64,000 nt of DNA from Candidatus Coatesbacteria bacterium (GCA_030602715.1 JAUVZD010000008.1:1-64000), one strand, 5' to 3'; positions 7,718 to 46,506 are shown, counted from the stretch's first letter. Notes: generated from the letters alone by a model not told the origin. Numbers and translations: made by a program.

Positions 7718-7825
7718 AGTTTTTTTTCGGGTTGATTTTTTGGTGAAAATTTGCTAATGTTTTGTATAATAAATATTGGATAAGGTAAAAACTATCAAAA
7801 ACCGTAAAGAGGTCGGGCGACAGGA

Positions 7826-8854
7826 GTGAGCGAGAACATAACCATTAGCGATAAGCTGAGAAGCGGTGATTCCGGAAAAGTAACCATCGTCGTCTGGGGT
7901 GATGTGTGTCTTGACGAGTATATTTATGGTCAAGTGCGCACCATCACCAAAGAAGCGCCGGTTCCTGCTCTTTTTGAGAGCTTTCGTGAGAAAGTCCCCG
8001 GACAGGCTGGCAATGTTGCCCGCAATTTGATCGCTCTGGGTTGTGGTGTGCGCCTGGTATCCTGCTGGGGAGAGGATGCCAGTGGGGAGAGGTTGAGGGA
8101 GCTCTTCGGTGCAACGGAGACTGATATTTCCGGAAGCATTATCTCGGAGAGCGTAACCACCACCCATAGAATCAAATTGGTGAACCATAGTCCCCAGAGA
8201 GGATATTATCATCTATATCACATATATCGTGAAGGCATCTGTCCGGATGAGCTGGCGGGCAAGCTCGTGGAGGATTTTATCCTTGACCGCAGTGATTGTC
8301 AAGCCTTTGTTATCTCCGATTACTCCTTGGGGGTTCTTTCCGAGAGACTGGTGGGGGAGGTCATTGGTCGGGCAAAGGAGATGGGCATCCCGACGGTTGC
8401 CAACACCCGCGGTTCTATCTTTATGTATCAGGGTGTCAGTGGAATCGTCTGCAACCTGGAGGAGGTCTCAATTGCGCTTGGGGGTGACCCCATTCTGGAG
8501 GAAAGAAAGACGGAGCAGGTGGTCGGGGGGGCGCATAGACTGCTTGCTGAGCAGGGCTGGGAGTGGATTTTGGTGACCGGGGGAGGAGAGGGGATGTTTT
8601 TAATTGATGGCAGTGGTTCCTCGGGGAAGGGGGAGGTTGTGCATCTCTCGCCTTGTGCTTGCAAAGTGGTGGACATTACCGGGGCGGGGGATACGGTGGT
8701 GGCGGCGATGGCTTTTGGGTTGGGGCTGGGCTGGGAACTTGAGGAGGCGATGCAGTTGGCAAATCTTGCCGCCGGAGTGGTGGTGGGCAAGCCGGGCACC
8801 TCCACAGCCACGCCCGAGGAGATAGAGAGCCTGGATAAAGATCGGAGTTTGTGA
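7826..8854 (+). CDS. hldE: D-glycero-beta-D-manno-heptose-7-phosphate kinase (RfaE/HldE domain I, PfkB family)
   Basis: VTIVVWGDVCLDEYIYGQVRTITKEAPVPAL matches the RfaE domain-I N-terminus. C-terminal DITGAGDTVVAAMAFGL is the PfkB anion-hole motif. Confidence 0.7.
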   Translation: MSENITISDKLRSGDSGKVTIVVWGDVCLDEYIYGQVRTITKEAPVPALFESFREKVPGQAGNVARNLIALGCGVRLVSCWGEDASGERLRELFGATETDISGSIISESVTTTHRIKLVNHSPQRGYYHLYHIYREGICPDELAGKLVEDFILDRSDCQAFVISDYSLGVLSERLVGEVIGRAKEMGIPTVANTRGSIFMYQGVSGIVCNLEEVSIALGGDPILEERKTEQVVGGAHRLLAEQGWEWILVTGGGEGMFLIDGSGSSGKGEVVHLSPCACKVVDITGAGDTVVAAMAFGLGLGWELEEAMQLANLAAGVVVGKPGTSTATPEEIESLDKDRSL

Positions 8855-8896: not shown

Positions 8897-9229
8897 GTGA
8901 TAGGAATGACCAGTAAGATTCAGGAGTTGCGTAAGAAGCATCATATGACCCAGGCGGAGCTGGCGGAGATGTTGAATATCTCCAAAGGTTATCTTAGCCA
9001 GTTAGAAATCAGTGTGCGCTCACCCTCCCTGAAACTGCTTAAACAGCTCTCCAAGATATTCTCCGTCCCTCTGGACTATCTGGTCTTTGACAGAGCCACC
9101 CTGGACGGGCAGGAGATTCCGGAATCTATCATTGTCTTCTTCCGCACCGAGAATCTCTCAGATAAGGACCTGGAGGAGCTGAAGAGCCTCTTTGAGTGGT
9201 GGAAGAAACAACGGGAGAAGAGGAAGTAG
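8897..9229 (+). CDS. XRE-family helix-turn-helix transcriptional regulator
   Basis: LRKKHHMTQAELAEMLNISKGYLSQLE is a classic Cro/C1 HTH. 110 aa. Confidence 0.8.
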   Translation: MIGMTSKIQELRKKHHMTQAELAEMLNISKGYLSQLEISVRSPSLKLLKQLSKIFSVPLDYLVFDRATLDGQEIPESIIVFFRTENLSDKDLEELKSLFEWWKKQREKRK

Positions 9230-9321
9230 GGGGGGGGTAACGGTTCGTTTCTGTTTTAACCGAATAACGGTAAAATTTGGGGTTTTCCTTTGGAGATATT
9301 TCCCAACGGTTGGTGATAATT

Positions 9322-9843
9322 ATGCGCCCTGAGGACTATGCCCGCAGTCTATTCCATCTGCTGGATATTACCTCAACGCCTGTAGATTTAGAGCCGATAT
9401 GTAAGTATTTCAACATCGCCGTCAAGAGGGTTGACTTAGCTCTGGTGCTGGGAGTGTTGATAAAGGACCGGATAATGCCGGTGATTGCGGTCAACAAGAA
9501 TATGACCCTGCCCCGCCAGCGTTTCACTCTGGCTCACGAGTTGGGACATTTCATCATGCCCCACAACAGCCCTATATTCGCCTGCAGGGATGCGCAGGTC
9601 AACCGCTGGGAGAGGGAGGCAAATCGCTTCGCCGGCGAGCTGTTGATGCCCCAGCCGTTGGTGGCGAGGTTGTGGAGGAAGTATGAGGACAATCCCGAAC
9701 ACCGAATGGATATCCTAGCCGCACGGCTTTCGGTATCGGGGCAGGCGCTTGCCATTCGTTTGCGGGGATTGGGTTTTGCCCTTGCAGAAGATGGTAGTGG
9801 GAACGAGAGAGCAACGAGAGATGGGGGGAAGCTGGCGATATGA
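9322..9843 (+). CDS. ImmA/IrrE-family (COG2856) zinc metallopeptidase, partner of the upstream XRE regulator
   Basis: HEXXH motif TLAHELGHFIMPH. The ORF-track start is TTG at 9277. ATG at 9322 (MRPEDYARSL) is preferred. The stop overlaps the next gene start (ATGA). Confidence 0.7.
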   Translation: MRPEDYARSLFHLLDITSTPVDLEPICKYFNIAVKRVDLALVLGVLIKDRIMPVIAVNKNMTLPRQRFTLAHELGHFIMPHNSPIFACRDAQVNRWEREANRFAGELLMPQPLVARLWRKYEDNPEHRMDILAARLSVSGQALAIRLRGLGFALAEDGSGNERATRDGGKLAI

Positions 9844-10967
9844 GGATTGCCATTGATTGCGAGCCCATTACCTGCAATATGGGGGGGATTCGGGTTTATA
9901 CAATGAATCTGGTTCGGGCTTTAGCTCGCATAGAAACGGATACCCAATTTCGCCTCTATTATAGCTTCTCCCGCAGATACCTACATACCCCGCTTACTGT
10001 CCCCAGGGAGAACTTTTCCAATATCTACAATCCCCTTCCCGCTGCAGTTATGGATTGGGCGACAGCGCACACCCCCCTCAGCCATTCATTTTTTCTGGGT
10101 TCGGTGGATGTGGTTCATTCCATCAACTTTAGATATTTTAAGTTGACCCGGGGCGAGAAGCTGGTGGTCACCATCCATGATGTCTGTTTTCTGCTCTTTC
10201 CACAATTTTTCGGTGAGGAGATGGCATCCAAGCTCAAAAGGTCGGTTGAACGGCTCCTACAAGATGCAGAATATGTCATCACCGTCTCGGAGAATACGCG
10301 GCGGGATTTCTTGGAACACTTCATCTGGCCCGAGGATAGAATTTCGGCGATTCTCGAGGGAGTGGATACTCGTATGGCGGCTGGCTTGACGCTTTCAAGA
10401 GGTGGGAGGCGAGGTATAGATGCGCCTTACATACTATCCGTGGGGACGCTGGAACCCCGAAAGAATTATTCCCGACTGTTTAGAGCCTTCTCTGAGCTGA
10501 AAAGGGAGCATAAGGAACCATTGAAATTGGTTGTGGTCGGTGGAAGAGGGTGGTTATACGGGGAGACCTTGAAGACTTGGGAGGATAGTCCGGTGAGGGA
10601 GGATATTGTCATTCTCGGTAGGGTGGAGTTTGAGCGGTTACAGGAGTTGTATAGGGGAGCGGAGTTTTTCGTCTATCCCTCGGTTTATGAGGGTTTCGGT
10701 CTGCCCATTCTGGAAGCCCAGCAGATGGGTTTGGCGGTGCTGGCGGGGGACAATTCCAGCATCCCTGAGGTGTGCGGGGATTCCGCTTTGTTGGTAAATA
10801 GCAGCAGTGAAAGGGAGATAGCCTGGGGTATGAAGAGGTTGCTTGCAGACCTTGATTTCAGGCGGATGCTGGTGGAGAGGGGGAGGGTGAATCTGGGAAG
10901 GTTCAGCTGGGATGACACCGCTCGCCGGGTTTTGGAGATCTATCGGCTTGTTGCCGGCGAGGGGTAG
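9840..10967 (+). CDS. Glycosyltransferase family 4 (GT1 superfamily)
   Basis: EGFGLPILEAQQMGLAVLAGDNSSIPEV retaining-GT4 signature. Confidence 0.8.
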   Translation: MRIAIDCEPITCNMGGIRVYTMNLVRALARIETDTQFRLYYSFSRRYLHTPLTVPRENFSNIYNPLPAAVMDWATAHTPLSHSFFLGSVDVVHSINFRYFKLTRGEKLVVTIHDVCFLLFPQFFGEEMASKLKRSVERLLQDAEYVITVSENTRRDFLEHFIWPEDRISAILEGVDTRMAAGLTLSRGGRRGIDAPYILSVGTLEPRKNYSRLFRAFSELKREHKEPLKLVVVGGRGWLYGETLKTWEDSPVREDIVILGRVEFERLQELYRGAEFFVYPSVYEGFGLPILEAQQMGLAVLAGDNSSIPEVCGDSALLVNSSSEREIAWGMKRLLADLDFRRMLVERGRVNLGRFSWDDTARRVLEIYRLVAGEG

Positions 10968-10968
10968 A

Positions 10969-12084
10969 ATGGATGTGAAATTGGAACAGGAGAGGGCGAA
11001 AGATGTCCTTGAGGGCTGGCAGTTGGTGCCCTTGGCTGTCGGTCTTATGCGCTCTATAACCGGCGGGGAGAAGTATAACCGGAGGGTGATAACGGCGTTG
11101 GAAGGACTGGGTGCAAGGCTTCGGGGCTTCGCCCCTCCAAGTTGTAACAGCCCTTTTCTGCGCCTCCTGTGGGAGATACTTTTTTGGCTCTCAAAGGTCG
11201 CGGACTTGAGCCATAGGACACTATTCTTTTTCGACTCCTCCTGCTATCTGAGTTTGTTTTTCGTTCTGCTTTATATAAGAATCTTCAAGCAAGCTAGGAT
11301 AATAACAACTGTCTATCATTTAACCAATATACTTCCAAAAAACCCAGTCAGGAGAATGGTATATCGGTTTTTTGAAGGGGGGGCTATAAGATTATCCCAT
11401 CTAATACTTACAATAAGCAACTCCACCAGGGAGGATATCCATAAGATCGCCGGTGCTTTTGTATCTCCGTTCATCGTCCCGCCGGGGATGGAGATCGTGT
11501 CTATGAAACGACGGCGTTCATATAGGACGAAATCGCCTTTCAGGATAGTCTCCCTGGGTTTTATCGCCCCCCAAAAGGGGGTTGAGACCTTGATCAAGGC
11601 GGTAGGTTTGCTGGGCGGTCTTGATGTGGAGGTGGACTGGGCGGGAGATTACTCCAGAGACCGCCGGGATTTTTACTTGAGATGCAAGGAACTTGTGGCA
11701 AAACTGGGCTTGCAGGATAGATTTCGTTTTCGGGGTTATCTCAGCCGGGAGGAGCTATCCACTCTTTTGGAGGAAGCGGACCTCTTCGTCTCTCCCTCCT
11801 CTTTGGAGGGTTACGGGATTGCCATAATTGAGGCGGCATCGTTCTCCCTCCCGCTATTGCTTTCGGATATTGCTCCATTCAGGGAATTTGCCGGCGGTGA
11901 TGCTTTGTATTTCAAACCTGGTAACTGCGAGGGATTGGCGGAGGTCATTGAGGGATTGCTGCAGAACCATAAGAAAAGGGAGCGGATGGGCAGGGCGGTC
12001 TATGAGCGTGTGGATTTTTCCTATGACTGGGACAGTATGCAGTCTATGGTCCAGGAGGTGGTAGGGGAATGGTGGAGGCGATAA
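10969..12084 (+). CDS. Glycosyltransferase family 4
   Basis: EGYGIAIIEAASFSLPLLLSDIAPFREF. Start set to ATG at 10969 (MDVKLEQ), 1 nt after the preceding stop. The ORF-track start at 10912 overlaps the upstream gene. Confidence 0.7.
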   Translation: MDVKLEQERAKDVLEGWQLVPLAVGLMRSITGGEKYNRRVITALEGLGARLRGFAPPSCNSPFLRLLWEILFWLSKVADLSHRTLFFFDSSCYLSLFFVLLYIRIFKQARIITTVYHLTNILPKNPVRRMVYRFFEGGAIRLSHLILTISNSTREDIHKIAGAFVSPFIVPPGMEIVSMKRRRSYRTKSPFRIVSLGFIAPQKGVETLIKAVGLLGGLDVEVDWAGDYSRDRRDFYLRCKELVAKLGLQDRFRFRGYLSREELSTLLEEADLFVSPSSLEGYGIAIIEAASFSLPLLLSDIAPFREFAGGDALYFKPGNCEGLAEVIEGLLQNHKKRERMGRAVYERVDFSYDWDSMQSMVQEVVGEWWRR

Positions 12085-12153
12085 TTTTACATTAGATAAT
12101 TGCGGAAGACATTAGCCGGATTTAGGTGGATTTTTTCCCCGAACGGAGTGGAT

Positions 12154-13293
12154 ATGGGAAGTGGCGAGACCAAAAAGATAAGGGTGATGCTCACTATCAC
12201 CGACCTCTCCATCGGGGGAATAGAGCTGGTCAATCTGAACCTTGCCAGGCACCTGGATAAGAGCCGGTTTGAGGTGACCCTGGTCTGCTGGCGGGGCGAG
12301 GGTCCGCTGATAAAGAGGCTGAGGGGACAGGATTTTGACCTGGTGGTCTTCGGACTTCCCCCCTGGAATTTCTTGGGCATACTGTGGCGATATTGTCGGG
12401 AGATTAGAGGAAGGCGGATTCACATATTGCACGCCAACCCCGGCTCCTTCGCAAGAATTTCCGCCGTAGCCCTCAAAGTGCCGGTGATAATCTCCTCATT
12501 TCATAGCCAGTGGCGGTTGGGATTTGTGAAATTACTACTGGACCGAACGCTCTCAAAATTCACCGACTATTTTATCGGGGTTTCTCAGGCGGTCGCCGAA
12601 CATATTAAGGCACAGCAGAAAGTAAGGGATGATAGGATAAAGGTTGTATATAATGGTGTTATTCCAGAGGAGTATGAACTCCACCCTCGGGATATTTCCC
12701 TTAAAAGCGAACTTGGGCTCGCCTATAATGCCCGTCTGGTGGGCTTTCTGGGTCGTCTCAGTTTTGAGAAAGGCGCAGACATCCTCATCCGAGCCGCCCC
12801 CGCCATACTGAGAAAACAGAGGACAGCCCATCTGGTCATCGTGGGAGACGGACCGGAGAGAGCCGACCTGGAGCGCATGGCGCAGGAGCTGGGAATTTTT
12901 AAGCGAGTCCACTTCTTGGGCTATCGCCAGGACATCCCTGAAATTCTCTCCGCACTGCATGTGGTGGCGGTTCCCTCCCGTCAAGCCGGCTTTGAACTGA
13001 TACTGGCTGAGGCTATGGCTTCCGGTGTGGTGGTGGTGGCTTCCAGAGTAGGACCCATCCCCGAGGTGATCGCCGACGGGGAGACCGGATTATTGGTGCC
13101 CCCACAGGACCACGAAGCCTTCGCAGATGCCATCATTAAACTACTGGGCCAACCCGACCGGCGAAAGAGGATGGGAGAGGCGGGCAGAGCGAGGGTCAGA
13201 GAGAGATTCTCCATCCAGAGGATGGTTTCTGAGACTGAAGCGCTCTACGAGAGACTGGTAGCGGAGAAGATGGGCGGGCGAAAGACCGCCTGA
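12154..13293 (+). CDS. Glycosyltransferase family 4
   Basis: VVAVPSRQAGFELILAEAMASGVVVVASRVGPIPEV. ATG at 12154 behind GGAG. The ORF-track start is TTG at 12100. Confidence 0.8.
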   Translation: MGSGETKKIRVMLTITDLSIGGIELVNLNLARHLDKSRFEVTLVCWRGEGPLIKRLRGQDFDLVVFGLPPWNFLGILWRYCREIRGRRIHILHANPGSFARISAVALKVPVIISSFHSQWRLGFVKLLLDRTLSKFTDYFIGVSQAVAEHIKAQQKVRDDRIKVVYNGVIPEEYELHPRDISLKSELGLAYNARLVGFLGRLSFEKGADILIRAAPAILRKQRTAHLVIVGDGPERADLERMAQELGIFKRVHFLGYRQDIPEILSALHVVAVPSRQAGFELILAEAMASGVVVVASRVGPIPEVIADGETGLLVPPQDHEAFADAIIKLLGQPDRRKRMGEAGRARVRERFSIQRMVSETEALYERLVAEKMGGRKTA

Positions 13294-13366
13294 TTTCACC
13301 TGGCAGAATGAGTAAAATTATCCAACAATATTATATCTTGAATATTCGTGGTATCAATACCACAGC

Positions 13367-14950
13367 CTATCCTAGGCTCCAGATTATTACCCGTGTCGCA
13401 TCCTGCCCCCGGGGTTGATAGAATTCGGAGCGGTAGAACTCCTGCTCTTTGCTCACGGTGATGTTGGCTCCGAAGCCGTCATAAACTCGGCTGGGGATGT
13501 AGAGGGAATATTGCTGGTAGTCGCCGGTGTTGACCGGATAGTCGTCGAACCAGAAGGCGTGTTGAACAAAGTAATCCACGTTGTTTTTTTGTATGTACTC
13601 CTCAAGTTGGCCGCTCCGCAGGTATTCCTGATACTCGAAGTCGTTGACAAGTCCGTCGAGATTTATGGTGGTACGTTGGGAGTAATATCCAAAGACGCCA
13701 CAGTCCTTCATGGCAAATATCGCCCCTTCAGGGGTGTTTTCGCGTGCATATATGGCGGTCTCGTATATTCTTATGGTCATTCCCATTTCGCGGCGGCTGA
13801 GGGAATAGGCTTGAGTGCCTAGTGTGGAGATAGCCGCAATAATGAACAACGCCTTCATAATAAGCATACAACCACGCTTTGATTTTAACTCTTTGAGCAA
13901 AATTAGCAATGGCATCCCGGTGCTTAATACTATAACCGGCAATAGGAAGGAGAAGGTATAGGCGAACACGCCCCATTTGACAAAGAGAAAGTTGAATGTG
14001 AGGAAGAGTAGGGAGGAGATGGCGAAAAGGGTTATGGGGATGAGGAAGCGGTCTCTTTGCTCCTGGTTGAAGTATCGTTTGCTTAAAAGAATGATAATTA
14101 TTGCGATAACGGCGAAGGCGAAGCCAGCAAAATATTCGGGGTAGGTGGTGACCATACGAAGCACTTGATTGGTGGTGCCGGAGAGGGTCCACTTCACCTT
14201 CATCTTGGAGCTGATGGTGGCGATGGTGCCGAAATTTGTGTAGTTCCAGTTCAGGAAGGGAAGTAGGCCCAGCACAACCACACTGCCGGCGAGCAGCGCT
14301 CCCAGTGAAGCGGTGGTCGGGGATTTGTGCTTACAAATGTCGATTATTAAAATGTAGGAAAGTATCACCGCGGGCAGAAAGAAGGTATCGAGCCGGGTAA
14401 GCACTAGAGCCGTCAGAAGCGCTCCCAGAAGAAGAGAATAAAGGTGCCATTTGCTAGAAAATATTTCGGAAAAAATTTTTGGCAGTAAAAATAAAATAAG
14501 CAATAACAAAAAAATAACCAATCCGCTTTCCATACCGCCGTGAAATATATGAAAGAAGCGAGGATACATAGGTATCATTAAGAGAGTTGCTATCAGGAGG
14601 GGAGGGAATACTTCCTTTGCGTTTTTCTTTATAAGGATTAGTGAGCCTAAGAAGAGCAGCGCCTGAAGAACCAAGACTATCCTGATAAGACTGACTTGTC
14701 CCAGGCCGGGTATGGCTGAAAGTAGGGTTAGAACTAGAAGCCAGAGAGGGTGGAAGCCGTTGGTCTTGTGTATGCCGTCGAAGGTGGCGCCCTTGCCAGC
14801 GGTGATATTTTGGGCAATTTTGAGATAGTAATAAGTGTCATCCTGCATTGAGGAGATCATCAGGTCGGTTGGGTGAAAGGTAAATTGCAGGGAGTAAATG
14901 AAGAGTAGGGCTATTATTCCCCAGAGAATTTTTTGCTCATACTTTTCCAA
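13367..14950 (-). CDS. Polytopic membrane glycosyltransferase, GT39/PMT_2 (ArnT/PMT-like) family. This is a tentative call.
   Basis: More than 10 TM helices. The first-loop motif DDTYYYLKIAQNITAGKG...TNGFHPLW resembles the PMT_2 DE...HPPL region. A ~150-aa soluble C-terminal domain follows. Confidence 0.45.
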   Translation of the reverse strand: MEKYEQKILWGIIALLFIYSLQFTFHPTDLMISSMQDDTYYYLKIAQNITAGKGATFDGIHKTNGFHPLWLLVLTLLSAIPGLGQVSLIRIVLVLQALLFLGSLILIKKNAKEVFPPLLIATLLMIPMYPRFFHIFHGGMESGLVIFLLLLILFLLPKIFSEIFSSKWHLYSLLLGALLTALVLTRLDTFFLPAVILSYILIIDICKHKSPTTASLGALLAGSVVVLGLLPFLNWNYTNFGTIATISSKMKVKWTLSGTTNQVLRMVTTYPEYFAGFAFAVIAIIIILLSKRYFNQEQRDRFLIPITLFAISSLLFLTFNFLFVKWGVFAYTFSFLLPVIVLSTGMPLLILLKELKSKRGCMLIMKALFIIAAISTLGTQAYSLSRREMGMTIRIYETAIYARENTPEGAIFAMKDCGVFGYYSQRTTINLDGLVNDFEYQEYLRSGQLEEYIQKNNVDYFVQHAFWFDDYPVNTGDYQQYSLYIPSRVYDGFGANITVSKEQEFYRSEFYQPRGQDATRVIIWSLG

Positions 14951-15050
14951 AAAGTCTCCTGATAATTTATAATTATATTTACTTGAGCAAATATTAGCAT
15001 ACCCGATTTAAAAACTAAAGTATTAAGTATCGGCAGAAGAATCTAGCTGA

Positions 15051-15083
15051 GGGGGCTAGTAAGTAGCCCCCGTTACTTTTTTC
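15051..15083 (+). terminator. Terminator-like hairpin plus U-tract in the divergent region ~100 nt upstream of uvrA. It may be a leader attenuator or an insulator.
   Basis: GGGGGCTA (15051-58) pairs with TAGCCCCC (15064-71). The loop is GTAAG. GTTACTTTTTTCT follows. Confidence 0.35.
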
Positions 15084-15185
15084 TGGAACATACGTTTGGT
15101 TTCTGCGGTTGGAAAGAAGATGCTGACCATATCCGCGGAGTTTTCTTCGGTTGAAAGCGTTTGGTGATAATCGTATAATTGCAAC

Positions 15186-18044
15186 TTGGGGACAATGCCA
15201 AAAGGCGACGACAGCATAATTATACGCGGGGCTAGGGTGCATAATCTAAAGAATATAGATGTGCGCATTCCCCGCAACCGACTGGTGGTCATCACCGGAA
15301 TATCCGGCTCGGGGAAATCCAGCCTGGCATTTGACACCCTCTACGCCGAGGGACAGCGCCGTTATGTGGAGTCCCTCTCCGCCTATGCCCGCCAGTTTCT
15401 GGGTCAGATGGACAAGCCGGACTGTGACTCCATAGAGGGGCTCTCCCCAGCCATCTCCATAGACCAGAAGTCTGCCAGCAAGAACCCCCGCTCCACCGTG
15501 GCTACCATCACCGAGATACACGATTATCTGCGCCTGCTCTACGCCCGGGTCGGAAAGCCCCACTGTTATCAGTGCGGAAAGCCCATTGAGGCACAGGCGG
15601 TGGATCAGATGGTGGATGAGGTGATGAACCTGCCGGAGGGAACCCGATTTTATGTCCTCTCTCCGTTGGTGAAAGGGCGCAAGGGTGAACACCGCTCCGT
15701 ATTTGAATCCGCCCAGAAGTCCGGTTTCACCAGGGTCATTGTTGATGAGCTTGAGTATCGTCTGGATGAGGAGATTCCTCTGGACAAGAACAAGAAGCAC
15801 ACCATTGAATTGGTCGTTGACCGCCTGGTGATGAAAGAGAACCTGCGCAGTCGTCTGCACGAAGCTCTGGAGACCGCGCTCTCAAAATCGGACGACGGAT
15901 TGGTCAAGGTGAAAATTGTGGATGAGGGCTCAAAGGACGGTGAAAAATTTCTCTTCAGCCGAAAACTCTCCTGCCCCAACTGCGGTATCAGCTACGAGGA
16001 GCTCTCTCCACGGATGTTCTCCTTCAACAGTCCCTATGGTCGCTGTCCCACCTGCGACGGTCTGGGCTTCATCAGCGAGGTGGACCCGGAGCTGGTCATC
16101 TCCCATCCTCAGCTTTCCATAAATGAGGGAGCCATCTCCCCCTGGCGAGATACCTCCTCGGAGTGGGTCTCCGCCATCCTGGGGGCATTATCCCGTAATT
16201 ATAAGATTGACCTGGATAAGCCCTATCAGGAACTCAGGGAGGAGCAGAAGCGGGTCATCCTTTATGGAACCGGAAGCGATGAACTCCTGGTGGAGTTCGG
16301 CGACGAGCGCTTTCGGCGCAGTAGGCGAATGCGCTTTCGGGGGGTGATACCACTCATTGAGCGGGGCTACCACGAGACCTCCTCGGATGACGCCAGAGAA
16401 TTCTACTATGGTCGCTTTATCGCCAAAAATCCCTGTCCCGACTGCGGGGGGATGCGCCTGAAGCCGGCATCTCTTGCGGTAACTGTGGGGGGGAGGAACC
16501 TGGGCGAGGTGACCGCTATGAGCGTTGAGTCTGCGCTTCAGTTCTTCTCCGGACTCAAATTTTCCGAACATGAGATGTTGATAGCCAGGGAGGTGCTGAA
16601 GGAGATATCCGGCCGCTTAAAATTCATGCAGGATGTGGGGCTCTCCTACCTCACCCTGGACCGGACGGCTCCCACACTGGCGGGCGGGGAGGTTCAGCGC
16701 ATCCGTCTGGCAACCCAGATAGGCTCCGGTCTGGTGGGAGTGTTGTATATCCTGGATGAGCCCACCATCGGGCTCCATCAGCGGGATAATAAAAGACTGT
16801 TGGCTACGCTCAAAAAACTGCGGGATTTGGGCAATACGGTGATAATAGTGGAGCACGACCGTGAGACCATCAACTCCGCCGACTGGGTCATTGACCTGGG
16901 ACCGGGGGCGGGAGTGCACGGTGGGGAGGTGGTTACTTTTGGTCCGCCGGAGAAGGTGGCAAGGAGCAGAAATTCGCTCACCGGCAGGTACCTCTGTGGA
17001 CGGGAGGCGATTCCCATCCCCAGGGAGCGTAAGTCGGGCGACGGGCGTTTCTTGGAGATATTCGGGGCAGGTGAACACAATCTGAAGAATATTGAGGTCC
17101 GCTTTCCCCTGGGAACTTTCATCTGCGTAACCGGCGTATCCGGCTCGGGGAAATCAACCCTGGTGGATGAGACCCTATATCGTATTCTTGCCAGGGCAAT
17201 CAACCGCTCCCCGGTCAAACCGGGGAGATATAAGGCGGTTGATGGTGTGGAAAATATAGACAAGGTCATAGAGGTGGACCAGAGCCCCATCGGGCGTTCC
17301 CCCCGCTCCAATCCAGCCACTTATACCGGCGTCTTCACCCACATCCGGCACCTGTTTGCAATGTTGCCGGAATCCAAGGTTCGGGGCTACAGAGATGGGC
17401 GCTTCTCCTTCAATGTGTCCGGGGGTCGCTGTGAGGCTTGCGACGGCGACGGGTTCATCAAGGTGGAGATGCACTTTCTTCCCGATGTGTATATTCCCTG
17501 TCAGGTCTGCAAGGGCAAGCGCTACAATCGGGAGACCCTTGAGGTACGCTATAAGGGGAAAAACATCGCCGATGTCCTCTCCATGACCATTGAGGAGGCT
17601 TACTCCTTCTTTCAGACCATTCCCTCCGTCAAGCGGATTTTGCAGACCTTGCTGGATGTGGGATTGGGCTATCTGGAGTTGGGTCAGCCGGCTACCACCC
17701 TCTCCGGGGGAGAGGCTCAACGCATCAAGCTGGCTCGGGAACTGAGAAAGCGGGCTACCGGTAAAACCCTCTATATCCTGGACGAGCCCACCACCGGACT
17801 GCACTTTGAGGACGTGCGCAAACTGCTTTCGGTGCTTACTCGCCTGCGGGAGGGGGGAAACACGGTGGTGGTAATAGAACACAATTTTGAGGTGATCAAA
17901 ACCGCCGATTACATCATAGACCTGGGTCCTGAGGGTGGAGATGAGGGGGGATATGTGGTGGCTTGCGGAACTCCGGAGGAGGTGGCAAAAGTAAAGGATT
18001 CGCATACCGGGAGGTTCCTGCGGGGGATTCTACGGCAGAAATAG
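15186..18044 (+). CDS. uvrA: Excinuclease ABC subunit A
   Basis: Two ABC modules with [34 protein letters not shown] and [14 protein letters not shown], plus zinc fingers. 952 aa. Confidence 0.95.
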
Positions 18045-18117: not shown

Positions 18118-18456
18118 ATGAATAGACCGATTTTGTTTGTCTCTGTCCTTTTATGCCTGATACTTCTGGTGCCGAATCTGGCGTTTGCTTCCAAGTTCGC
18201 CATAATCGGGAGAAAGCCGCCCAAGGAGGAGCCGATAGAAGAGGTTGAGCCCCCACCACCGCCGACTTATGGTGGGGAGCAGTTGGGCACCACTCATGTG
18301 GTGGTGAAAGGGGAGTGTCTCTTCTTCATTGCCGGATATAGGGAGTATTACGGCGACCCGTTCAAGTGGCGCCTGATCTATGAGGCTAATAGGGACAAGA
18401 TAGCTAACCCCCACTGGATCTACCCCGGGCAGGAGTTTTATATCCCTCCGGAGTAG
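18118..18456 (+). CDS. Secreted LysM-domain protein
   Basis: Signal peptide followed by a C-terminal LysM-like segment HVVVKGECLFFIAGYREYYGDPFKWRLIYEANRD. Confidence 0.55.
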   Translation: MNRPILFVSVLLCLILLVPNLAFASKFAIIGRKPPKEEPIEEVEPPPPPTYGGEQLGTTHVVVKGECLFFIAGYREYYGDPFKWRLIYEANRDKIANPHWIYPGQEFYIPPE

Positions 18457-18477
18457 TCTAAATTATTGCAAAATCAA

Positions 18478-18510
18478 CCCCACCTTGAACTTCAGGTGGG
18501 GCTTTTTATT
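18478..18510. terminator. Bidirectional rho-independent terminator between convergent genes
   Basis: CCCCACCT pairs with AGGTGGGG around an 8-nt loop. CTTTTTATT lies 3' on the plus strand. On the minus strand the same hairpin is followed by TTGATTTTG. Confidence 0.6.
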
Positions 18511-18537
18511 GGGAGAGAATATGTCTGTTGGGCTTTT

Positions 18538-19635
18538 TTATTCGCCGATAGCCTTTCCACACTCCGGGCAGAATTTGGCACCGGAGGGAATATCCTTTTC
18601 GCAGGAGGGGCATTTCTTGGTGGTGACCAGGGGATTTCCACATTCCGGGCAGAACTTCCCCAGGGGGACGGTTTTTTCGCAGGCGGGACATTGCACCGTT
18701 TGTTTTTTCACCTTGGGTTTTAACTCCCCCCCGCAGGCGGGGCAGAAGTGGGAGTTGGCGGGGATGGTGGCGTTGCATTTGGTGCAGGTGGTGGTCTGCA
18801 TGGTGTTCATCATCTGCATCTGCTGAGCCATACTCATTCCGGCGCCGATGCCCATACCCAAACCCATGCCTTCACCCATACCGCTCTCACTGCCGGCGGC
18901 TTCTTCTATGGCTTTGGCGGTCTTATACTGCATAAATTTGTTCATGTCTCCGACGGCGCCCATGCCAGCCCGCTCGTCGATGGCTTTTTCCACCTCCGGC
19001 GGAGGGGTGATGGCGTTGATGAAGAAATCCCTCACTTCCAAGCCGTATTTTGCCAGGTCGTCAACGACTCGGGACTTCATCGCTGTGCCCAGTTCGTCGT
19101 AGATTGAGGTTAGGTCAAAGACGGATTTCATATTCTCGCCGAGGATATCGGTGAATCGGCTGACGAATATCCCCTTTAAGAAGCCAATGATGTCGCCGGT
19201 GGTGAATAACCCCTGGGTGCCCACAATTTTGTTTACGAACAGTTGGGAGTCGTGAATAACGATGGAGTAAGTGCCGTATGAACGCAGGCGAACCATGCCC
19301 AGCTCGGCGTCCCGGAAGGGGACCGGGTCCGGGGTGCCCCACTTCAGATTGCGAAAGGTCTTCTTGTTGACGAAATAGACCTCCGCCTTGAAGGGGCTGT
19401 CCCCTCCGCTCAATAAGGCGGATAAGAATTTGGTGAGCAGGGGGATGTTGGCGGTGGTCAGGGTGTGTCGTCCGGGTCCGAAGACATCGTAGGCTTTACC
19501 GTCACGGAAGAAGACCGCCTTCTGGTTCTCCCGCACGGTCAGTTGGGCGCCGAGCTTTAGCTCATCGTTGGGAAAGCGGACCACCATCTCATCGCCCATC
19601 TCCTCCCGCCACTCTATAACATCTATTACTGCCAA
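18538..19635 (-). CDS. SPFH/band-7 (stomatin-prohibitin) domain protein with four C-terminal zinc-ribbon repeats (COG4260 / YdjI-like)
   Basis: N-terminus AVIDVIEW...VVRFPNDELKLGAQLTV is the SPFH core. The C-terminus is 4x CxxC...CxxC (CTKCNATI...CPACGG, CPACEK...CPECGN, CPSCEK...CPECGK). True start is TTG at 19635 behind GGAGGTG. The track ATG at 19698 is upstream of the SD. Confidence 0.75.
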   Translation of the reverse strand: MAVIDVIEWREEMGDEMVVRFPNDELKLGAQLTVRENQKAVFFRDGKAYDVFGPGRHTLTTANIPLLTKFLSALLSGGDSPFKAEVYFVNKKTFRNLKWGTPDPVPFRDAELGMVRLRSYGTYSIVIHDSQLFVNKIVGTQGLFTTGDIIGFLKGIFVSRFTDILGENMKSVFDLTSIYDELGTAMKSRVVDDLAKYGLEVRDFFINAITPPPEVEKAIDERAGMGAVGDMNKFMQYKTAKAIEEAAGSESGMGEGMGLGMGIGAGMSMAQQMQMMNTMQTTTCTKCNATIPANSHFCPACGGELKPKVKKQTVQCPACEKTVPLGKFCPECGNPLVTTKKCPSCEKDIPSGAKFCPECGKAIGE

Positions 19636-19654
19636 TGTGCACCTCCAATTGTTT

Positions 19655-20176
19655 TTAAGGTTGCAGAAGTATCTCTTCCCGTTTGGTGAATTCAGCATCC
19701 AAGCCCTCCACCTTCTCCGTCAATGCCTCCAGAGCTTTGCTGAGTTCGGAAGCTTCGCCTGCCGCCTTTTTAGCTTTGGTGACAAACTCCTCCGTCTCCA
19801 TAACCTGTTGTAGTATCTCTGCGTCGAAATCATAGAGTTTGTCCAGGTGGTGTTCATCCACCCGCACCGGATCAAAGAAGCCGGCGTAGCCGTAATCGGC
19901 GAAGCGGATGCGGTCCTCTACCTTCTCCATTTTGGCGGCGACTCTGTCCACAGGGGAGAGTTCCTCCAACCGCCCGTCGTTGGTCAGCTTCTCGGCTATC
20001 TTCATAAAATCCCGGCGATAGCCGCCCAGCTTGTCGGCGATGTGCACCCGAAGCATCTTGTCCGCCTCCCGACGGGTCTCCTTCTCGGTGTAGCCACCGT
20101 AGGCGGGAATGTGCTCCACACACCAATCGTGGAACTTTCTTCGGTCACTGCCGACCAGGTTTCTCAGGTCTTCCAA
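19655..20176 (-). CDS. Hypothetical protein with a coiled-coil C-terminus, co-transcribed upstream of the SPFH gene
   Basis: Start is TTG at 20176 behind AAAGGAGTG. No recognisable motifs. Confidence 0.45.
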   Translation of the reverse strand: MEDLRNLVGSDRRKFHDWCVEHIPAYGGYTEKETRREADKMLRVHIADKLGGYRRDFMKIAEKLTNDGRLEELSPVDRVAAKMEKVEDRIRFADYGYAGFFDPVRVDEHHLDKLYDFDAEILQQVMETEEFVTKAKKAAGEASELSKALEALTEKVEGLDAEFTKREEILLQP

Positions 20177-20440
20177 TTTATCACTCCTTTCAAGATAGCC
20201 AAAAGGGGAATTGATTATACATAAATATATTCGGATTTGCAATTAGAACTGACCTAATTTTATCATCCCAATAGGGGAAAATGAGATTAAAGTGTGCAGA
20301 ACGATTGTCCGTGGGCAGTAAAACTAATCTGCCAACTACTTAAATGTTTTATTATATATTATCATATCAGAGACTGGATTTAAACTATAATTTCGCAGGT
20401 GTCGGTTTAACGATATTCGGGATTTTAACGGGACTATTTC

Positions 20441-34552: not shown

Positions 34553-34839
34553 ACCAAAGCCTAAAATAAATAAGAAAGCTAAGAAACCCCATCCCCGCAA
34601 ATACGAAAAACCCATCTCGCTTTATTCCTTACCGTTGTACGAGGTGTTAAAGGCCGCACTCGCGGGGAAACGCAAAGGCGCGAAACCGTCCCGTGGTTTG
34701 CGAAAGGCATAGTTCCCTAGGGTTATACTTTACTATCTCCTATGGGAACTTTAATCCCCAGGGAGCCTTTGGCTCTCATTTCTTATTGCTGTTGACCTCT
34801 GATGATGATATACTCGCCCCGTTCAGAAAGGAGACAACG

Positions 34840-35394
34840 ATGGCTGAAAGAAGGGGCTATTTTTACTCAATAGCAATAATCATCAGCCTTTTATTCACAG
34901 TTCAGGCTTGGGCGCAGATGAACGCTGTTGAGAGTGAGGGGTTTCGTATTCCCCTTGATGTAGAGGCTGGGGCAACGGGTGATCTCGGTTTCTCCCCGCT
35001 GACCGCAGAGGAGATAACCAGAGTGTTTGATGATAATGAAATGGTCTATACCCAGGTCTCGTCCAACGCCTGGGTTCTACCCTACACCAGCAGTAATATG
35101 GAGAACCTGGAGGTTGCCCTCATCCTCAATCCGGACTGGGTGGTGTTCTCCACGACCATCCTTACCCTGCCGGAAAAGGTCAAAGAGAAGGACGTCTATC
35201 GTGACCTATTGGAGTATAACTTCCAGGTCAATCAGGGGAAGTTCGCCATAGACGAGGGCAAAATCTATTTTCTCATAGAGGTCCCCATCCGCCTCTGCGA
35301 TGTGCAGGAACTGTTGGACAATCTCAGCGCCAGCGCCCAGGTAGCCGACGGTATGTATCCGGTGCTTTTGGAAAGTCTGGACCTGGAGGATTGA
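34840..35394 (+). CDS. Secreted YbjN-like domain protein
   Basis: Start is ATG at 34840 behind AAGGAG. Signal peptide IAIIISLLFTVQAWAQ. LLEYNFQVNQGKFAIDEGKIYFLIEVPI resembles the YbjN fold signature. Confidence 0.4.
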   Translation: MAERRGYFYSIAIIISLLFTVQAWAQMNAVESEGFRIPLDVEAGATGDLGFSPLTAEEITRVFDDNEMVYTQVSSNAWVLPYTSSNMENLEVALILNPDWVVFSTTILTLPEKVKEKDVYRDLLEYNFQVNQGKFAIDEGKIYFLIEVPIRLCDVQELLDNLSASAQVADGMYPVLLESLDLED

Positions 35395-35423
35395 TATAAC
35401 CTGAAAAAACCCTGATTTATATG

Positions 35424-35458
35424 TTTTACAGCGGGGTTGCAAAAACCCCGCTGTAAAA
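35424..35458. repeat. Perfect 15-bp inverted repeat with a 5-nt loop
   Basis: TTTTACAGCGGGGTT gcaaa AACCCCGCTGTAAAA. No flanking U-tract on either strand. Confidence 0.8.
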
Positions 35459-35494
35459 ATGCATATCCATTTTACTTACATCAAACAAAGAAAA

Positions 35495-35521
35495 GCCGAG
35501 GGTTCTCCCCCGGCTTTCCTC
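35495..35521 (+). terminator. Candidate intrinsic terminator after the YbjN-like gene
   Basis: GCCG(A)GGG pairs with CCCCGGC around loop TTCTC. TTTCCTC follows. Confidence 0.4.
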
Positions 35522-35658
35522 AAAGCTCTTTCCTGAAGGGAGAGGTGATAGTTTTGGTCTACAGGGGATTCCACCGATTGGAGAGTATTGGGTTGCCTTG
35601 GGGGGGATTTTTGTTATATAATGGCTTTAAGATGATGAGTGGATTTGGAGGGTAAATT

Positions 35659-36387
35659 ATGCCAGGTTACCGTTGGATTATCGGTCTTTTTGCGGTGGTT
35701 TTATCGCTTGTCCTTTTTGCGGAAGGGGCTTTCGCCAAACGTAAGGAGGAGGAACCCCCGAAGGACTCCAGAGTAATTGCCCACATACAATTTGGGGTAA
35801 ACTATGGACTTTCGTCGCCGGATATGGTGGATACTATTAATGACACCGCAATAAATACGCTGAACTCTGAGGACCGCTTGGGCGATTTCGGCTTGGGGTT
35901 TAGCTTCGGCTTGGATATCCTATTCAACGCGAAGGGACCGTTATGGCTCGGTGGGGGGCTGGGAATCAATACCGCCAAAACCCACCAGAAATTCAAGTAT
36001 TATGACGCTATTGGTAACTTCTACAATGAGTATTATGGGATAAGCCTTACCGTTGGGTCGCTTGACGGCTTGGCTATGTTTCGTTTCAACACCAGGGGGA
36101 GTTTCTCGCCATATCTTTTCGCAGGTGGCGGTATCTCCCTTACAGTGATGAATTTTGATAACTATATGGTAAATATCTATGGGGGTGAGCACTTCCATCG
36201 GGGTCAAGCCACTAAATACTCCCCTGTCCTGCGGGCTGGTGGAGGTTTTGGTGTTCCCTTCTTCAACCTGGGTCAGTTCTTCACCCAGGTGAGCTACACC
36301 TATCCCGTTGGGGAGTTTGAGGTTTTAGGTTGGGGAGTGAAGCAAGACGCCTGGGCGGTATCTTTCGGATTGGATAGAGCCTTCTGA
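35659..36387 (+). CDS. Outer-membrane beta-barrel protein (OmpA-like 8-strand / OMP_b-brl family)
   Basis: Signal peptide ending AFA. Alternating hydrophobic/aromatic strands with Gly-rich turns. C-terminal ...AWAVSFGLDRAF. Confidence 0.55.
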   Translation: MPGYRWIIGLFAVVLSLVLFAEGAFAKRKEEEPPKDSRVIAHIQFGVNYGLSSPDMVDTINDTAINTLNSEDRLGDFGLGFSFGLDILFNAKGPLWLGGGLGINTAKTHQKFKYYDAIGNFYNEYYGISLTVGSLDGLAMFRFNTRGSFSPYLFAGGGISLTVMNFDNYMVNIYGGEHFHRGQATKYSPVLRAGGGFGVPFFNLGQFFTQVSYTYPVGEFEVLGWGVKQDAWAVSFGLDRAF

Positions 36388-46496: not shown

Positions 46497-46506
46497 GAGG
46501 GGAGAT

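What the first reader, a model, noticed from the sequence alone, without database searches (positions are those of the whole stretch)
8897..14950. XRE/ImmA(IrrE) regulator pair heads a glycosyltransferase cluster 5 kb from uvrA; AACGGTT-type repeats between the two regulator genes
XRE repressor plus COG2856 metalloprotease pairs normally gate mobile-element or DNA-damage regulons (ImmR/ImmA, DdrO/IrrE). Here the pair is translationally coupled (ATGA) to three GT4 genes, follows a heptose kinase, and precedes a convergent GT39-like membrane transferase. No integrase or phage genes are present. The 92-nt xre-immA spacer holds three copies of AACGGT(T): 9239-9245, 9266-9271, and the 11-nt palindrome CCAACGGTTGG at 9303-9313, which lies 9 nt from the ImmA start. 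This is candidate operator architecture. It suggests surface glycosylation switched by proteolytic removal of a repressor. uvrA lying 5 kb downstream on the same strand is reminiscent of IrrE-controlled repair regulons but may be coincidental.
Basis: partly seen in the sequence, partly recalled or inferred. Interest (0 to 1): 0.5.

Follow-up and report, generated by a model that had tools for sequence, protein, structure and literature searches.

The report
Repressor-protease switch heading a glycosyltransferase operon
A small DNA-binding repressor and the zinc protease that probably cuts it sit, stably inherited, in front of a variable set of sugar-transferase genes in an uncultivated bacterium, but the repeated AACGGTT motif proposed as its binding site is not conserved and the nearby DNA-repair gene uvrA is a separate unit.

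Summary
The gene-level observation is correct. The order is PfkB sugar kinase, XRE repressor (8906-9229), M78/ImmA peptidase (9322-9843), three GT4 genes, an orphan membrane gene on the minus strand, then uvrA. The three AACGGT(T) copies exist, but they are not an operator. Copy 1 is already mutated in relatives that are 96-98% identical. None of the copies exists in three more distant syntenic lineages whose XRE recognition helix is identical. All other AACGGTT sites in the window lie in coding sequence.

The xre-immA-GT4 unit is kept in five lineages. XRE is the most conserved protein of the locus (86%/73% identity against 81%/66% for UvrA), while the GT4 genes turn over (26-48%). XRE is CapH-like: 107 aa, with an invariant FFR motif where CapP cuts CapH. 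ImmA has HExxH plus Glu and a clade-specific Cys that aligns with the CapP cysteine switch, but it lacks the GAF sensor domain. uvrA has its own promoter behind a terminator.

Best reading (confidence about 0.5): a domesticated ImmR/ImmA- or CapH/CapP-type proteolytic derepression switch that controls a glycan operon. The operator and the trigger are unknown. This is a new variant of a known kind and is of modest interest.

The parts
7729..7798 (.). Conserved block in the divergent pnp/pfkB intergenic region. It holds a candidate pfkB-operon promoter (TTGATT 7732-7737, 17 nt, TAATGT 7755-7760) and the TSS-proximal core TATAATAAATATTG (7765-7778). It also holds a possible minus-strand promoter: TTGATA (7798-7793), 17 nt, TATTTA (7775-7770).
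   Evidence: About 78% identical across window, L002 and L009, while the flanking intergenic DNA is scrambled (A6; A2). TAAATATT is the only exact 8-mer shared with the xre promoter region of L178. The promoter assignments are my own reading. The scan tool found only GTGAAA-16-TATAAT at 7743-7770, and that TATAAT is not conserved.
7826..8854 (+). PfkB-family sugar kinase, rfaE-domain-I-like; first gene of the presumed operon
   Evidence: PF00294 at E 5e-28. TIGR02198 at 226.6 bits, below the cut-off of 345. A PfkB homologue (36% identity) also precedes a 38%-identical XRE in L182.
8906..9229 (+). xre: 107-aa CapH/SinR-like repressor. N-terminal HTH_3 domain plus a C-terminal helical domain with invariant P72, F79, R80, D88, E91, L92 and W99.
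   Evidence: HTH_3 at E 2e-16. PADLOC capH matched over its full length, E 9e-13. SinR aligned over its full length. Conservation data.
9230..9321 (+). xre-immA spacer. It holds AACGGTT (9239-9245), AACGGT (9266-9271) and the palindrome CCAACGGTTGG (9303-9313), which overlaps the GGTGAT ribosome-binding site. A G9 run lies at 9229-9237.
   Evidence: Sequence. Sequence not conserved in orthologues, and spacer length varies from 89-92 nt to 30 nt in L178. No RNA structure signal (z = 0.72). No Rfam hit.
9322..9843 (+). immA: single-domain M78 zinc peptidase of 173 aa. H72-E73-xx-H76, Cys88 on a strand over the active site, and E97 as third ligand. No GAF domain.
   Evidence: PF06114 at E 5e-21. 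PADLOC capP at E 8e-28, covering profile positions 4-151 of 242. Alignment to CapP 7t5t. AF2 pLDDT 90, best fold hit 7t5t with TMq 0.67. Cys distribution.
9840..10967 (+). GT4a glycosyltransferase; its start overlaps the immA stop (ATGA)
   Evidence: Glycos_transf_1 at E 9e-30. 47-48% and 36% identical in orthologous loci.
10969..12084 (+). GT4b glycosyltransferase. The likely start is ATG 10969; the ORF opens at 10912.
   Evidence: The start is inferred from the 371-aa call in L176. Only 26-30% identical in L002, L009 and L178.
12154..13293 (+). GT4c glycosyltransferase. The likely start is ATG 12154; the ORF opens at 12100.
   Evidence: Glycos_transf_1 at E 1e-43. 26-34% identical in L002 and L178.
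13367..14950 (-). Orphan 527-aa polytopic membrane protein. Strain-specific insertion into the end of the cluster; not part of the conserved module.
   Evidence: No Pfam, NCBIfam or PDB match. GC about 0.45. Absent from L175, L176 and L002.
15051..15071 (+). Intrinsic-terminator hairpin GGGGGCTAGTAAGTAGCCCCC followed by a T-run. It ends the GT operon in relatives and insulates uvrA.
   Evidence: Conserved directly after GT4c in L175.
15151..15179 (+). uvrA's own promoter, TTGAAA-17-TATAAT
   Evidence: Conserved in L175 and L002 (TTGCAA-17-TATAAT).
15195..18044 (+). uvrA (949 aa from ATG 15195): a separate transcription unit
   Evidence: A 949-aa protein listed at 100% identity (P0125).

Best explanation
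This is a chromosomal, vertically inherited repressor/anti-repressor switch of the XRE/COG2856 kind (ImmR/ImmA, CapH/CapP, DdrO/IrrE). It has been recruited to control a glycan-synthesis operon.

**Proposed mechanism**
- The 107-aa XRE protein binds DNA as an oligomer held together by its C-terminal helical domain. It represses the promoter that drives (pfkB-)xre-immA-GT4.
- On a stress signal the co-encoded single-domain M78 zinc peptidase cuts XRE at or next to F79-R80, in the first part of that C-terminal domain. Oligomerisation and DNA binding are lost, and the kinase and glycosyltransferase genes are derepressed.
- The peptidase has no GAF/ssDNA-sensing domain, but it keeps a cysteine aligned with the CapP cysteine switch. 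The trigger is therefore more likely something that releases that thiol from the zinc (redox, electrophile or zinc status, or a partner protein) than direct ssDNA binding.

**Shown**
- Gene content, catalytic residues, conservation and synteny.
- The operon-like packing of the genes.
- The insulation of uvrA.
- The non-conservation of the AACGGTT repeats.

**Inferred**
- That XRE represses, that this operon is its target, the cleavage and its site, and the trigger.
- The operator. The candidate is TATAWTAAATATT at the transcription start region, window 7765-7778.
For: **Family assignment.** HTH_3 and Peptidase_M78. PADLOC capH matched over its full length and capP at E 8e-28. The closest solved sequence and fold is CapP 7t5t, followed by IrrE/PprI.

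**Intact active site.** H72, E73, H76 and E97 are invariant in 66 homologues. They align with H96/E97/H100/E129 of CapP.

**Cysteine switch.** Cys88 aligns with the CapP switch residue C113. It sits on predicted strand 85-88. It is present only in this clade: the loop holds a Cys in 5 of 66 homologues, and it aligns with Cys88 in 4 of them.

**Cleavage motif.**
- XRE has the same length as E. coli CapH (107 aa).
- F79-R80 is invariant down to 37% identity (A12).
- CapH has F81 and is cut between F82 and R83.

**Conserved module.**
- xre-immA-GT4 is kept in five lineages.
- Stop and start overlap or lie 17-22 nt apart.
- No terminator is predicted before the end of the GT genes.
- In L178 the unit has its own TTGACG-17-TATACT promoter, followed by a perfect 14-bp palindrome.

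**Purifying selection.** XRE is 86% and 73% identical in the orthologues, against 81% and 66% for UvrA, 66% and 42% for ImmA, and 26-48% for the GT4 genes.

**Sugar link.** PfkB also precedes a 38%-identical XRE in L182.

**Not mobile.** The flanks are housekeeping genes. The best phage ImmA hit is at most 34% identical, and XRE has no phage hit.
Against: - No operator has been demonstrated. The one shared motif is AT-rich and could be chance (my estimate, p about 0.01-0.1). In the window clade it could instead be a promoter element for pnp.
- Adjacency and co-orientation do not prove regulation.
- In the window clade xre has no recognisable promoter of its own, so autoregulation would have to act about 1.1 kb upstream, at the pfkB promoter.
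- The XRE structure prediction failed (pLDDT 49), so the position of F79-R80 within a dimerisation helix is not shown.
- A 45%-identical ImmA relative that has the Cys has no XRE gene called upstream: the two upstream ORFs have no Pfam hit. Peptidases of this clade may therefore have other substrates.
- COG2856 partners can also act without cleavage, as in Rir/Crh (PMC6868357).
Confidence: 0.5

Rival explanations
1. The pair is a lineage-wide global stress regulator in the manner of DdrO/IrrE. Its regulon lies elsewhere and may include DNA-repair genes. Its position in front of the GT4 genes is historical, not functional.
For: XRE is more conserved than UvrA, as expected of a regulator constrained by many sites and partners. 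DdrO is essential in Deinococcus (PMC6868357). uvrA lies downstream in all five lineages that have the pair. ogt and dprA are also in the window.
Against: uvrA is insulated by a terminator and has its own promoter, which shares no motif with the xre region. A relative with 65% UvrA identity has uvrA without the cluster. The tight xre-immA-GT4 packing persists even where flanking genes differ, as in L178. A regulon cannot be assessed from 64 kb.
Confidence: 0.2
2. ImmA antagonises XRE without cutting it, by blocking oligomerisation as Rir does with Crh. Alternatively, its real substrate is another protein, and XRE regulates independently.
For: Non-proteolytic COG2856 action is documented (PMC6868357). 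The 45% ImmA relatives L005-L008 have no XRE gene called upstream; the two upstream ORFs have no Pfam hit, and I read them as membrane or zinc-ribbon proteins.
Against: All catalytic residues are invariant. A zinc-capping Cys makes sense only for a regulated active protease. The invariant F79-R80 matches the known CapH scissile site.
Confidence: 0.15
3. The pair is a selfish Xre-COG2856 toxin-antitoxin-like module, or a relic of an integrated element, and lies next to the GT genes by chance.
For: Xre-COG2856 pairs are predicted toxin-antitoxin or mobile stress modules (PMC2701414, listed; PMC6868357). In 76 loci of distant homologues, at least 42 have an XRE gene upstream. Their downstream genes include PIN, Bro-N, a methylase and nucleases.
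Against: The synteny is fixed in five lineages. XRE evolves more slowly than UvrA. There is no GC anomaly at 8-13 kb, no tRNA, no integrase nearby and no close phage homologue. The whole XRE family collapses into one 50%-identity cluster among 1.84 billion representatives.
Confidence: 0.07
4. One reading: the three AACGGT(T) copies in the spacer are the XRE operator.
For: Three copies lie within 92 nt. One is a palindrome over the immA ribosome-binding site.
Against: Copy 1 reads AGCGGTT or AGCGGTC in L012 and L175-177. No copy exists in L002, L009 or L178, although the DNA-reading residues are identical. In those orthologous loci the 7-mer occurs only in coding DNA or not at all.
Confidence: 0.03

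Closest known systems
ImmR/ImmA of Bacillus subtilis ICEBs1 (and phage phi105)
   Same: [quoted passage not shown] The two genes are co-directional and lie at the head of the genes they control. The repressor is cut after a Phe in its C-terminal part: ImmR at F95|M96, and the candidate here at F79|R80 (PMC6868357).
   Different: The pair here is not on a mobile element: no integrase, excisionase or transfer genes, and housekeeping synteny in five lineages. The cargo is glycosyltransferases. The peptidase has a CapP-type Cys over the active site. By sequence it is closest to CapP among solved structures; no solved ImmA structure was matched.
CapH/CapP regulators of CBASS and other defence operons (Lau et al. 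2022, bioRxiv 10.1101/2022.04.27.489752; Calloji et al. 2026)
   Same: This is the best profile, sequence and fold match for both proteins. The repressor is 107 aa with an HTH and a C-terminal oligomerisation domain. The FFR motif sits where CapP cuts (F82|R83). The cysteine-switch residue aligns.
   Different: The linker-plus-GAF module that forms the ssDNA groove is missing, so the ssDNA trigger is not expected to work in the same way. The genes are co-directional with the cargo, not divergent from it. The cargo gives no PADLOC hit. The locus is core and syntenic, not a defence island.
DdrO/IrrE (PprI) radiation-desiccation response of Deinococcus
   Same: A chromosomal, lineage-wide, highly conserved XRE/COG2856 pair. 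The fold is similar (3dti and 8sln, TMq 0.60-0.62). Cleavage occurs before an Arg.
   Different: There is no GAF domain. The repressor has a shorter C-terminal domain of a different type. No RDRM-like motif was found at the uvrA promoter. The genes are adjacent and apparently in one operon with sugar enzymes.
SinR, repressor of the Bacillus eps operon
   Same: Full-length alignment of XRE to SinR: HTH plus a helical oligomerisation domain, E 8.5e-7. SinR represses an exopolysaccharide/glycosyltransferase operon and is relieved by an antagonist protein; this last point is from my own knowledge.
   Different: The antagonist here is a zinc peptidase, not the SinI/SlrR helical-hook proteins. The similarity is only about 30% and no orthology is claimed.

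Membership tests
XRE/COG2856 (ImmR/ImmA-type) repressor-metallopeptidase pair | Adjacent, co-oriented genes for an HTH_3 (XRE) protein and a Peptidase_M78/COG2856 protein | tested here: met
   The same order holds in at least 42 of 76 distant homologue loci.
XRE/COG2856 (ImmR/ImmA-type) repressor-metallopeptidase pair | Intact HExxH motif plus a downstream Glu zinc ligand in the peptidase | tested here: met
   H72, E73, H76 and E97 are invariant in A4 and A9 and align with the CapP active site.
XRE/COG2856 (ImmR/ImmA-type) repressor-metallopeptidase pair | Repressor with a C-terminal oligomerisation domain that carries the scissile bond | tested here: inconclusive
   The C-terminal domain is conserved and F79-R80 is invariant. 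CapH and SinR match over their full length. The AF2 model was unusable (pLDDT 49).
XRE/COG2856 (ImmR/ImmA-type) repressor-metallopeptidase pair | The peptidase cleaves the repressor and so derepresses the target genes | not testable with these tools
   This needs biochemistry or genetics.
ImmR/ImmA sensu stricto (mobile-element immunity module) | Resides on and controls an ICE or prophage (integrase, excision or transfer genes adjacent) | tested here: not met
   Synteny. Phage searches.
CapH/CapP | CapP architecture: peptidase, HTH-like linker and C-terminal GAF domain forming an ssDNA-binding groove | tested here: not met
   The protein is 173 aa. The capP profile is covered only at positions 4-151 of 242. 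The model is structured to about residue 150. TMt to 7t5t is 0.43.
CapH/CapP | Internal cysteine-switch loop (present in about a third of CapP proteins) | tested here: met
   C88 aligns with C113 of Thauera CapP. It lies on predicted strand 85-88. It is clade-specific. Zinc contact itself is not shown.
CapH/CapP | Regulators divergent from, and sharing a promoter with, an anti-phage defence operon | tested here: not met
   The genes are co-directional. The cargo proteins give no PADLOC hit. The GT4-conflict Pfam hits (35-41 bits) are far below the generic GT4 scores (91-149 bits).
DdrO/IrrE regulon | A shared palindromic operator at promoters of DNA-repair genes such as uvrA | tested here: not met
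   There is no AACGGTT site or other shared motif at the uvrA promoter in the window, L175, L002 or L178. Only 64 kb of the genome could be searched.
Type II toxin-antitoxin-like Xre-COG2856 module | Mobile, patchy distribution with rapid turnover | tested here: not met
   Fixed position in five lineages. XRE evolves more slowly than UvrA. It forms a single 50%-identity cluster.
ADP-heptose pathway kinase (HldE domain I / RfaE) | Score above the equivalog cut-off of TIGR02198 | tested here: not met
   226.6 bits against a cut-off of 345. This is the best-matching family but not an assignable orthologue. No gmhA, gmhB or adenylyltransferase gene was seen nearby.

The most novel reading that the evidence does not exclude
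A deep-branching uncultivated diderm lineage may have domesticated a minimal, GAF-less, cysteine-switch M78 peptidase and a CapH-like repressor into an indispensable core-genome stress switch. Under this reading the thiol capping the zinc is itself the sensor (oxidants, electrophiles or zinc status). The output is remodelling of a rapidly diversifying surface glycan (PfkB plus variable GT4 genes). This would link envelope glycosylation to a proteolytic derepression circuit known so far only from mobile elements, DNA-repair regulons and anti-phage operons.
Probability: 0.15. Interest if true: 0.6.

Novelty: new variant of a known kind. Interest (0 to 1): 0.35.

Why it matters
XRE/COG2856 pairs are very common, but only a handful have been studied: ICEBs1 and phage induction, the Deinococcus repair regulon, and CBASS and other defence operons. 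A pair that is fixed in the core genome, evolves more slowly than UvrA and heads a fast-changing glycosyltransferase cluster would extend the known outputs of this switch to cell-envelope glycans. It would also offer a minimal peptidase (no GAF domain, but a cysteine cap) in which to study how such proteases are triggered. On the practical side, the result corrects the specific operator and uvrA-regulon proposals.

Tried and rejected
- **AACGGT(T) as operator:** rejected on conservation.
- **uvrA co-regulation:** rejected because of the terminator, the separate promoter and its absence in L179.
- **Long-range RNA pairing** between the xre coding sequence (8975-8988) and the spacer (9287-9300). 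This is a perfect 14-nt inverted repeat. The fold is no better than shuffles, and the duplex is not supported in L009 or L178.
- **Structured RNA or riboswitch in the spacer or leader:** none found.
- **Phase variation at poly-G tracts.** The G7 tract in GT4a codons 14-16 is invariant among four close relatives. The short GT4a call in L175 is a gene-calling artefact, because its DNA over the gene is identical to L176.
- **Taxon identification.** A UvrA scan of species genomes gave only 58-64% hits in mixed phyla. The nearest named hits are '[bacterium]', Bipolaricaulota and Bacillota at 63-66%. The taxon remains unresolved.
- **Metagenome scan with the ImmA alignment.** It was swamped by homologues of 29-54% identity and returned no orthologues. 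I reused those loci as a background set.
- **AF2 model of XRE** from five sequences: failed.
- **'GT39-like' label** for the 527-aa protein: no support.
- **GT4-conflict (PF20706) hits as a sign of a defence system:** judged non-specific, and there are no PADLOC hits.
- **Exact-sequence look-ups** of the window's own ImmA and UvrA: not on record.

Full report
**1. The observation**

- a PfkB kinase at 7826-8854;
- an HTH_3/XRE protein at 8906-9229 (the ORF opens at GTG 8897);
- a Peptidase_M78 protein from ATG 9322 to 9843;
- three GT4 glycosyltransferases (9840-10967; 10912/10969-12084; 12100/12154-13293);
- a 527-aa ORF on the minus strand (13367-14950);
- UvrA (15186/15195-18044).

The immA stop and the GT4a start overlap as ATGA at 9840-9843. 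The 92-nt spacer holds AACGGTT (9239-9245), AACGGT (9266-9271) and CCAACGGTTGG (9303-9313), which ends 8 nt before the ATG.

Two labels are not supported. The kinase matches rfaE domain I best, but at 226.6 bits against a cut-off of 345. The 527-aa protein has no Pfam hit even at E<=10, no NCBIfam hit and no PDB sequence match.

**2. The repeats are not more than chance, and they are not conserved**

AACGGTT occurs 10 times in the window against 5.2 expected; 5 of 100 shuffles reach 10. The other eight sites lie inside ORFs. A hexamer occurring three or more times within 92 nt is found in 59 of 1390 half-overlapping windows, about half of them simple runs or short-period repeats.

The decisive test is conservation. 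I recovered syntenic orthologous loci from metagenomes:
- L012 (ImmA 98% identical);
- L175-177 (XRE 96%);
- L001-004 and L009-011 (XRE 86%, ImmA 66%);
- L178 (XRE 73%, ImmA 42%).

In the 96-98% relatives, copy 1 reads AGCGGTT or AGCGGTC. In L002 and L009 none of the three copies exists. In L178 the spacer is only 30 nt. Yet the DNA-reading residues of XRE (L23 N24 I25 S26 K27 G28 Y29 S31 Q32 E34 I35) are identical in all five lineages. An operator would be expected to be kept. In these loci the 7-mer occurs only in coding DNA, at the one palindrome site of the close relatives, or not at all.

**3. What is conserved instead**

The clade containing the window, L175, L002 and L009 shares this arrangement: GH57 branching enzyme, HAD and PNP on one strand, facing PfkB, XRE, ImmA, the GT4 genes and then UvrA. 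L178 keeps xre-immA-GT4(x4) and then a downstream uvrA, behind a different upstream gene.

Protein identities to the window, for L002 and then L178:

| Protein | L002 | L178 |
|---|---|---|
| XRE | 86% | 73% |
| UvrA | 81% | 66% |
| HAD | 79% | – |
| PNP | 68% | – |
| GH57 | 67% | – |
| ImmA | 66% | 42% |
| PfkB | 55% | – |
| GT4a | 48% | 36% |
| GT4b | 30% | 26% |
| GT4c | 26% | 34% |

The small repressor is thus the slowest-evolving protein of the locus, while the transferases turn over. An exhaustive HMMER search of 1.84 billion representatives finds only one full-length relative above about 40% identity (P0124, which is the L178 protein). The family is therefore a single 50%-identity cluster.

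The nearest more distant full-length relatives (37-40% identity) keep the C-terminal signature P72, F79, R80, D88, E91, L92 and W99. One of them (P0287, in L182) is again preceded by a PfkB homologue of 36% identity. By contrast, 76 loci of distant ImmA homologues mostly have an XRE gene upstream (at least 42). None has a GT4 gene detectable near ImmA, by phmmer within 3 kb or by Pfam on the downstream ORFs. Their downstream genes are a mixed bag: exonuclease, DprA, methylase, PIN and Bro-N.

**4. The proteins**

*XRE.* It matches the PADLOC capH profile over its full length (E 9e-13). It aligns end to end with SinR. E. coli CapH is also 107 aa, has F81 in its dimer core and is cut by CapP between F82 and R83 (10.1101/2022.04.27.489752). 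Here F78-F79-R80 is invariant.

*ImmA.* It matches capP (E 8e-28), but only over profile positions 4-151 of 242. Its only solved sequence relative is Thauera CapP, 7t5t. The AF2 model has pLDDT 90, and its best fold matches are 7t5t (TMq 0.67) and then IrrE/PprI.

- H72/E73/H76/E97 align with the CapP residues H96/E97/H100/E129.
- Cys88 aligns with the CapP cysteine-switch residue C113. It sits on predicted strand 85-88.
- Among 66 homologues, only the window clade and its 45% relative P0004 have the short 20-residue loop with this Cys. L178 has it too.
- The GAF domain is absent. In CapP and IrrE that domain forms the ssDNA groove together with the peptidase domain (10.64898/2026.05.16.725639). 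In architecture the protein is therefore ImmA-like (PMC6868357).

**5. Transcription units**

No terminator-like site lies in an intergenic gap between pfkB and the end of GT4c; the weak matches there all fall inside coding sequence. In L175 a strong hairpin (GGGGGCTAGCAAGTAGCCCCC followed by a T-run) follows GT4c directly. After it comes TTGAAA-17-TATAAT and then the uvrA ATG. The same elements are at window 15051-15071 and 15151-15179, and the promoter is kept in L002. uvrA is therefore a separate unit.

In the window, the 527-aa membrane gene (GC about 0.45) is inserted between GT4c and that terminator. It is missing from the 95-99% identical L175 and L176. A relative with 65% UvrA identity has cyclophilin, TusA, a 233-aa gene and uvrA, with no xre/immA/GT genes.

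**6. Where the operator may be**

The pnp/pfkB intergenic region holds a block of about 60 nt (7729-7789) that is about 78% identical across lineages whose other intergenic DNA is scrambled. I read it as follows:
- TTGATT-17-TAATGT (7732-7760), facing pfkB;
- possibly TTGATA-17-TATTTA on the other strand, facing pnp. This is weak, because the -10 lacks the final T.

L178 has its own xre promoter, TTGACG-17-TATACT, followed by the perfect palindrome TTTAATATATTAAA. L182 has TTGACA-17-TAGAAT with a GC-rich dyad in the spacer.

In an unbiased k-mer comparison, the only exact 8-mer shared between the L178 xre promoter region and the noncoding DNA of the window, L002 and L009 is TAAATATT. The match extends to 12 of 14 positions: window 7765-7778 TATAATAAATATTG against L178 TATATTAAATATTC. 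In both it starts 4-6 nt after the candidate -10. This is a candidate only, because it is AT-rich. The strict 10-mer is unique in the window, and its one-mismatch variants are at chance level.

**7. Interpretation**

The best-supported reading is a domesticated proteolytic derepression switch of the ImmR/ImmA-CapH/CapP-DdrO/IrrE kind that governs the (pfkB-)xre-immA-GT4 operon. The candidate scissile bond is F79|R80. The trigger is not GAF/ssDNA-based and may act through the Cys88 cap. Confidence is about 0.5.

The rivals are:
- a global regulon with an incidental location (0.2);
- non-proteolytic antagonism, or another substrate (0.15);
- a toxin-antitoxin-like module or a mobile-element relic (0.07);
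- the AACGGTT operator (0.03).

**8. Novelty**

The kind of switch is known. The variant features are:
- core-genome fixation with extreme repressor conservation;
- a glycosyltransferase cargo. Text searches found no described case. The cargoes named in the papers read are mobile elements, DNA-repair genes and known or putative defence operons;
- a GAF-less peptidase that keeps the CapP cysteine.

The organism is an uncultivated, probably diderm lineage: an AsmA-family protein is present, and the UvrA hits are uninformative. The operator proposal that motivated the finding is refuted, and no mechanism step is demonstrated. Interest is modest.

Noticed in passing
window 8975-8988 and 9287-9300: A perfect 14-nt inverted repeat (AATATCTCCAAAGG / CCTTTGGAGATATT). 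It joins the xre codons for N-I-S-K-G to the xre-immA spacer, 298 nt apart. I expect about 0.005 such pairs in this 1.6-kb stretch. The duplex beats all but 3% of shuffles in the window, but it is not supported in L009 or L178 and gives no fold-energy signal.
   Followed up: partly
window 9229-9237: A G9 homopolymer directly after the xre stop codon. Close relatives have 7 G (L012) or 6 G (L175-177). G or C runs of 7 or more occur 15 times in the window, so this may be a genome-wide habit. The G7 run in GT4a codons 14-16 (9881-9887) does not vary among four relatives.
   Followed up: partly
window 13305-15040 (gene 13367-14950, minus strand): A 527-aa polytopic membrane protein with no detectable family. 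It carries a QDDTYYY motif in its N-terminal region. GC is about 0.45. It is inserted between GT4c and the operon terminator and is absent from relatives that are 95-99% identical. It is a recent gain or loss in the glycan cluster.
   Followed up: partly
L005-L008 (ImmA at L005:1893-2354): The 45%-identical ImmA relative keeps the cysteine, but no XRE gene is called upstream. It follows a 145-aa ORF with CxxC...CxxC pairs that I read as a membrane zinc-ribbon protein, and an 88-aa hydrophobic ORF. It precedes an EPSP_synthase-family (MurA-like) gene, IspH and, further on, CapC-type capsule genes. This may be a different substrate in another envelope context.
   Followed up: no
L182:304-1716: A 38%-identical XRE with the same FFRS...EL..FW C-terminal signature also follows a PfkB kinase (36% identical). 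It has its own TTGACA-17-TAGAAT promoter, with a GC-rich dyad (ACGCGCC-CGC-GGCGTGT) between the hexamers. The contig ends at xre, so the presence of immA and GT4 genes is unknown.
   Followed up: partly
window 31895-36400: A low-GC island (0.43-0.47). It holds an 885-aa N6-adenine methylase of the Eco57I type (a type IIG-like restriction-modification enzyme), followed by two ORFs with no family match.
   Followed up: no
window 58032-63885: A second sugar-modification cluster: UDP-glucose/GDP-mannose dehydrogenase (58032-59357), a DegT/DnrJ aminotransferase (60701-61981) and a SAM methyltransferase (63235-63885).
   Followed up: no
window 45474-48560: A tyrosine recombinase (Phage_integrase family) lies just upstream of an hslU-like AAA_2 ATPase, separated by a 139-aa minus-strand ORF, and next to topA, trmFO/gidA and dprA. 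I read it as housekeeping XerC, not a mobile-element integrase.
   Followed up: partly
window 18118-20242 and L001/L175 equivalents: Downstream of uvrA the synteny continues. There are small proteins (faint LysM hits in the relatives), an SPFH/Band-7 protein with several zinc ribbons (18538-19698, minus strand) and a conserved 170-195-aa ORF with no family match.
   Followed up: no
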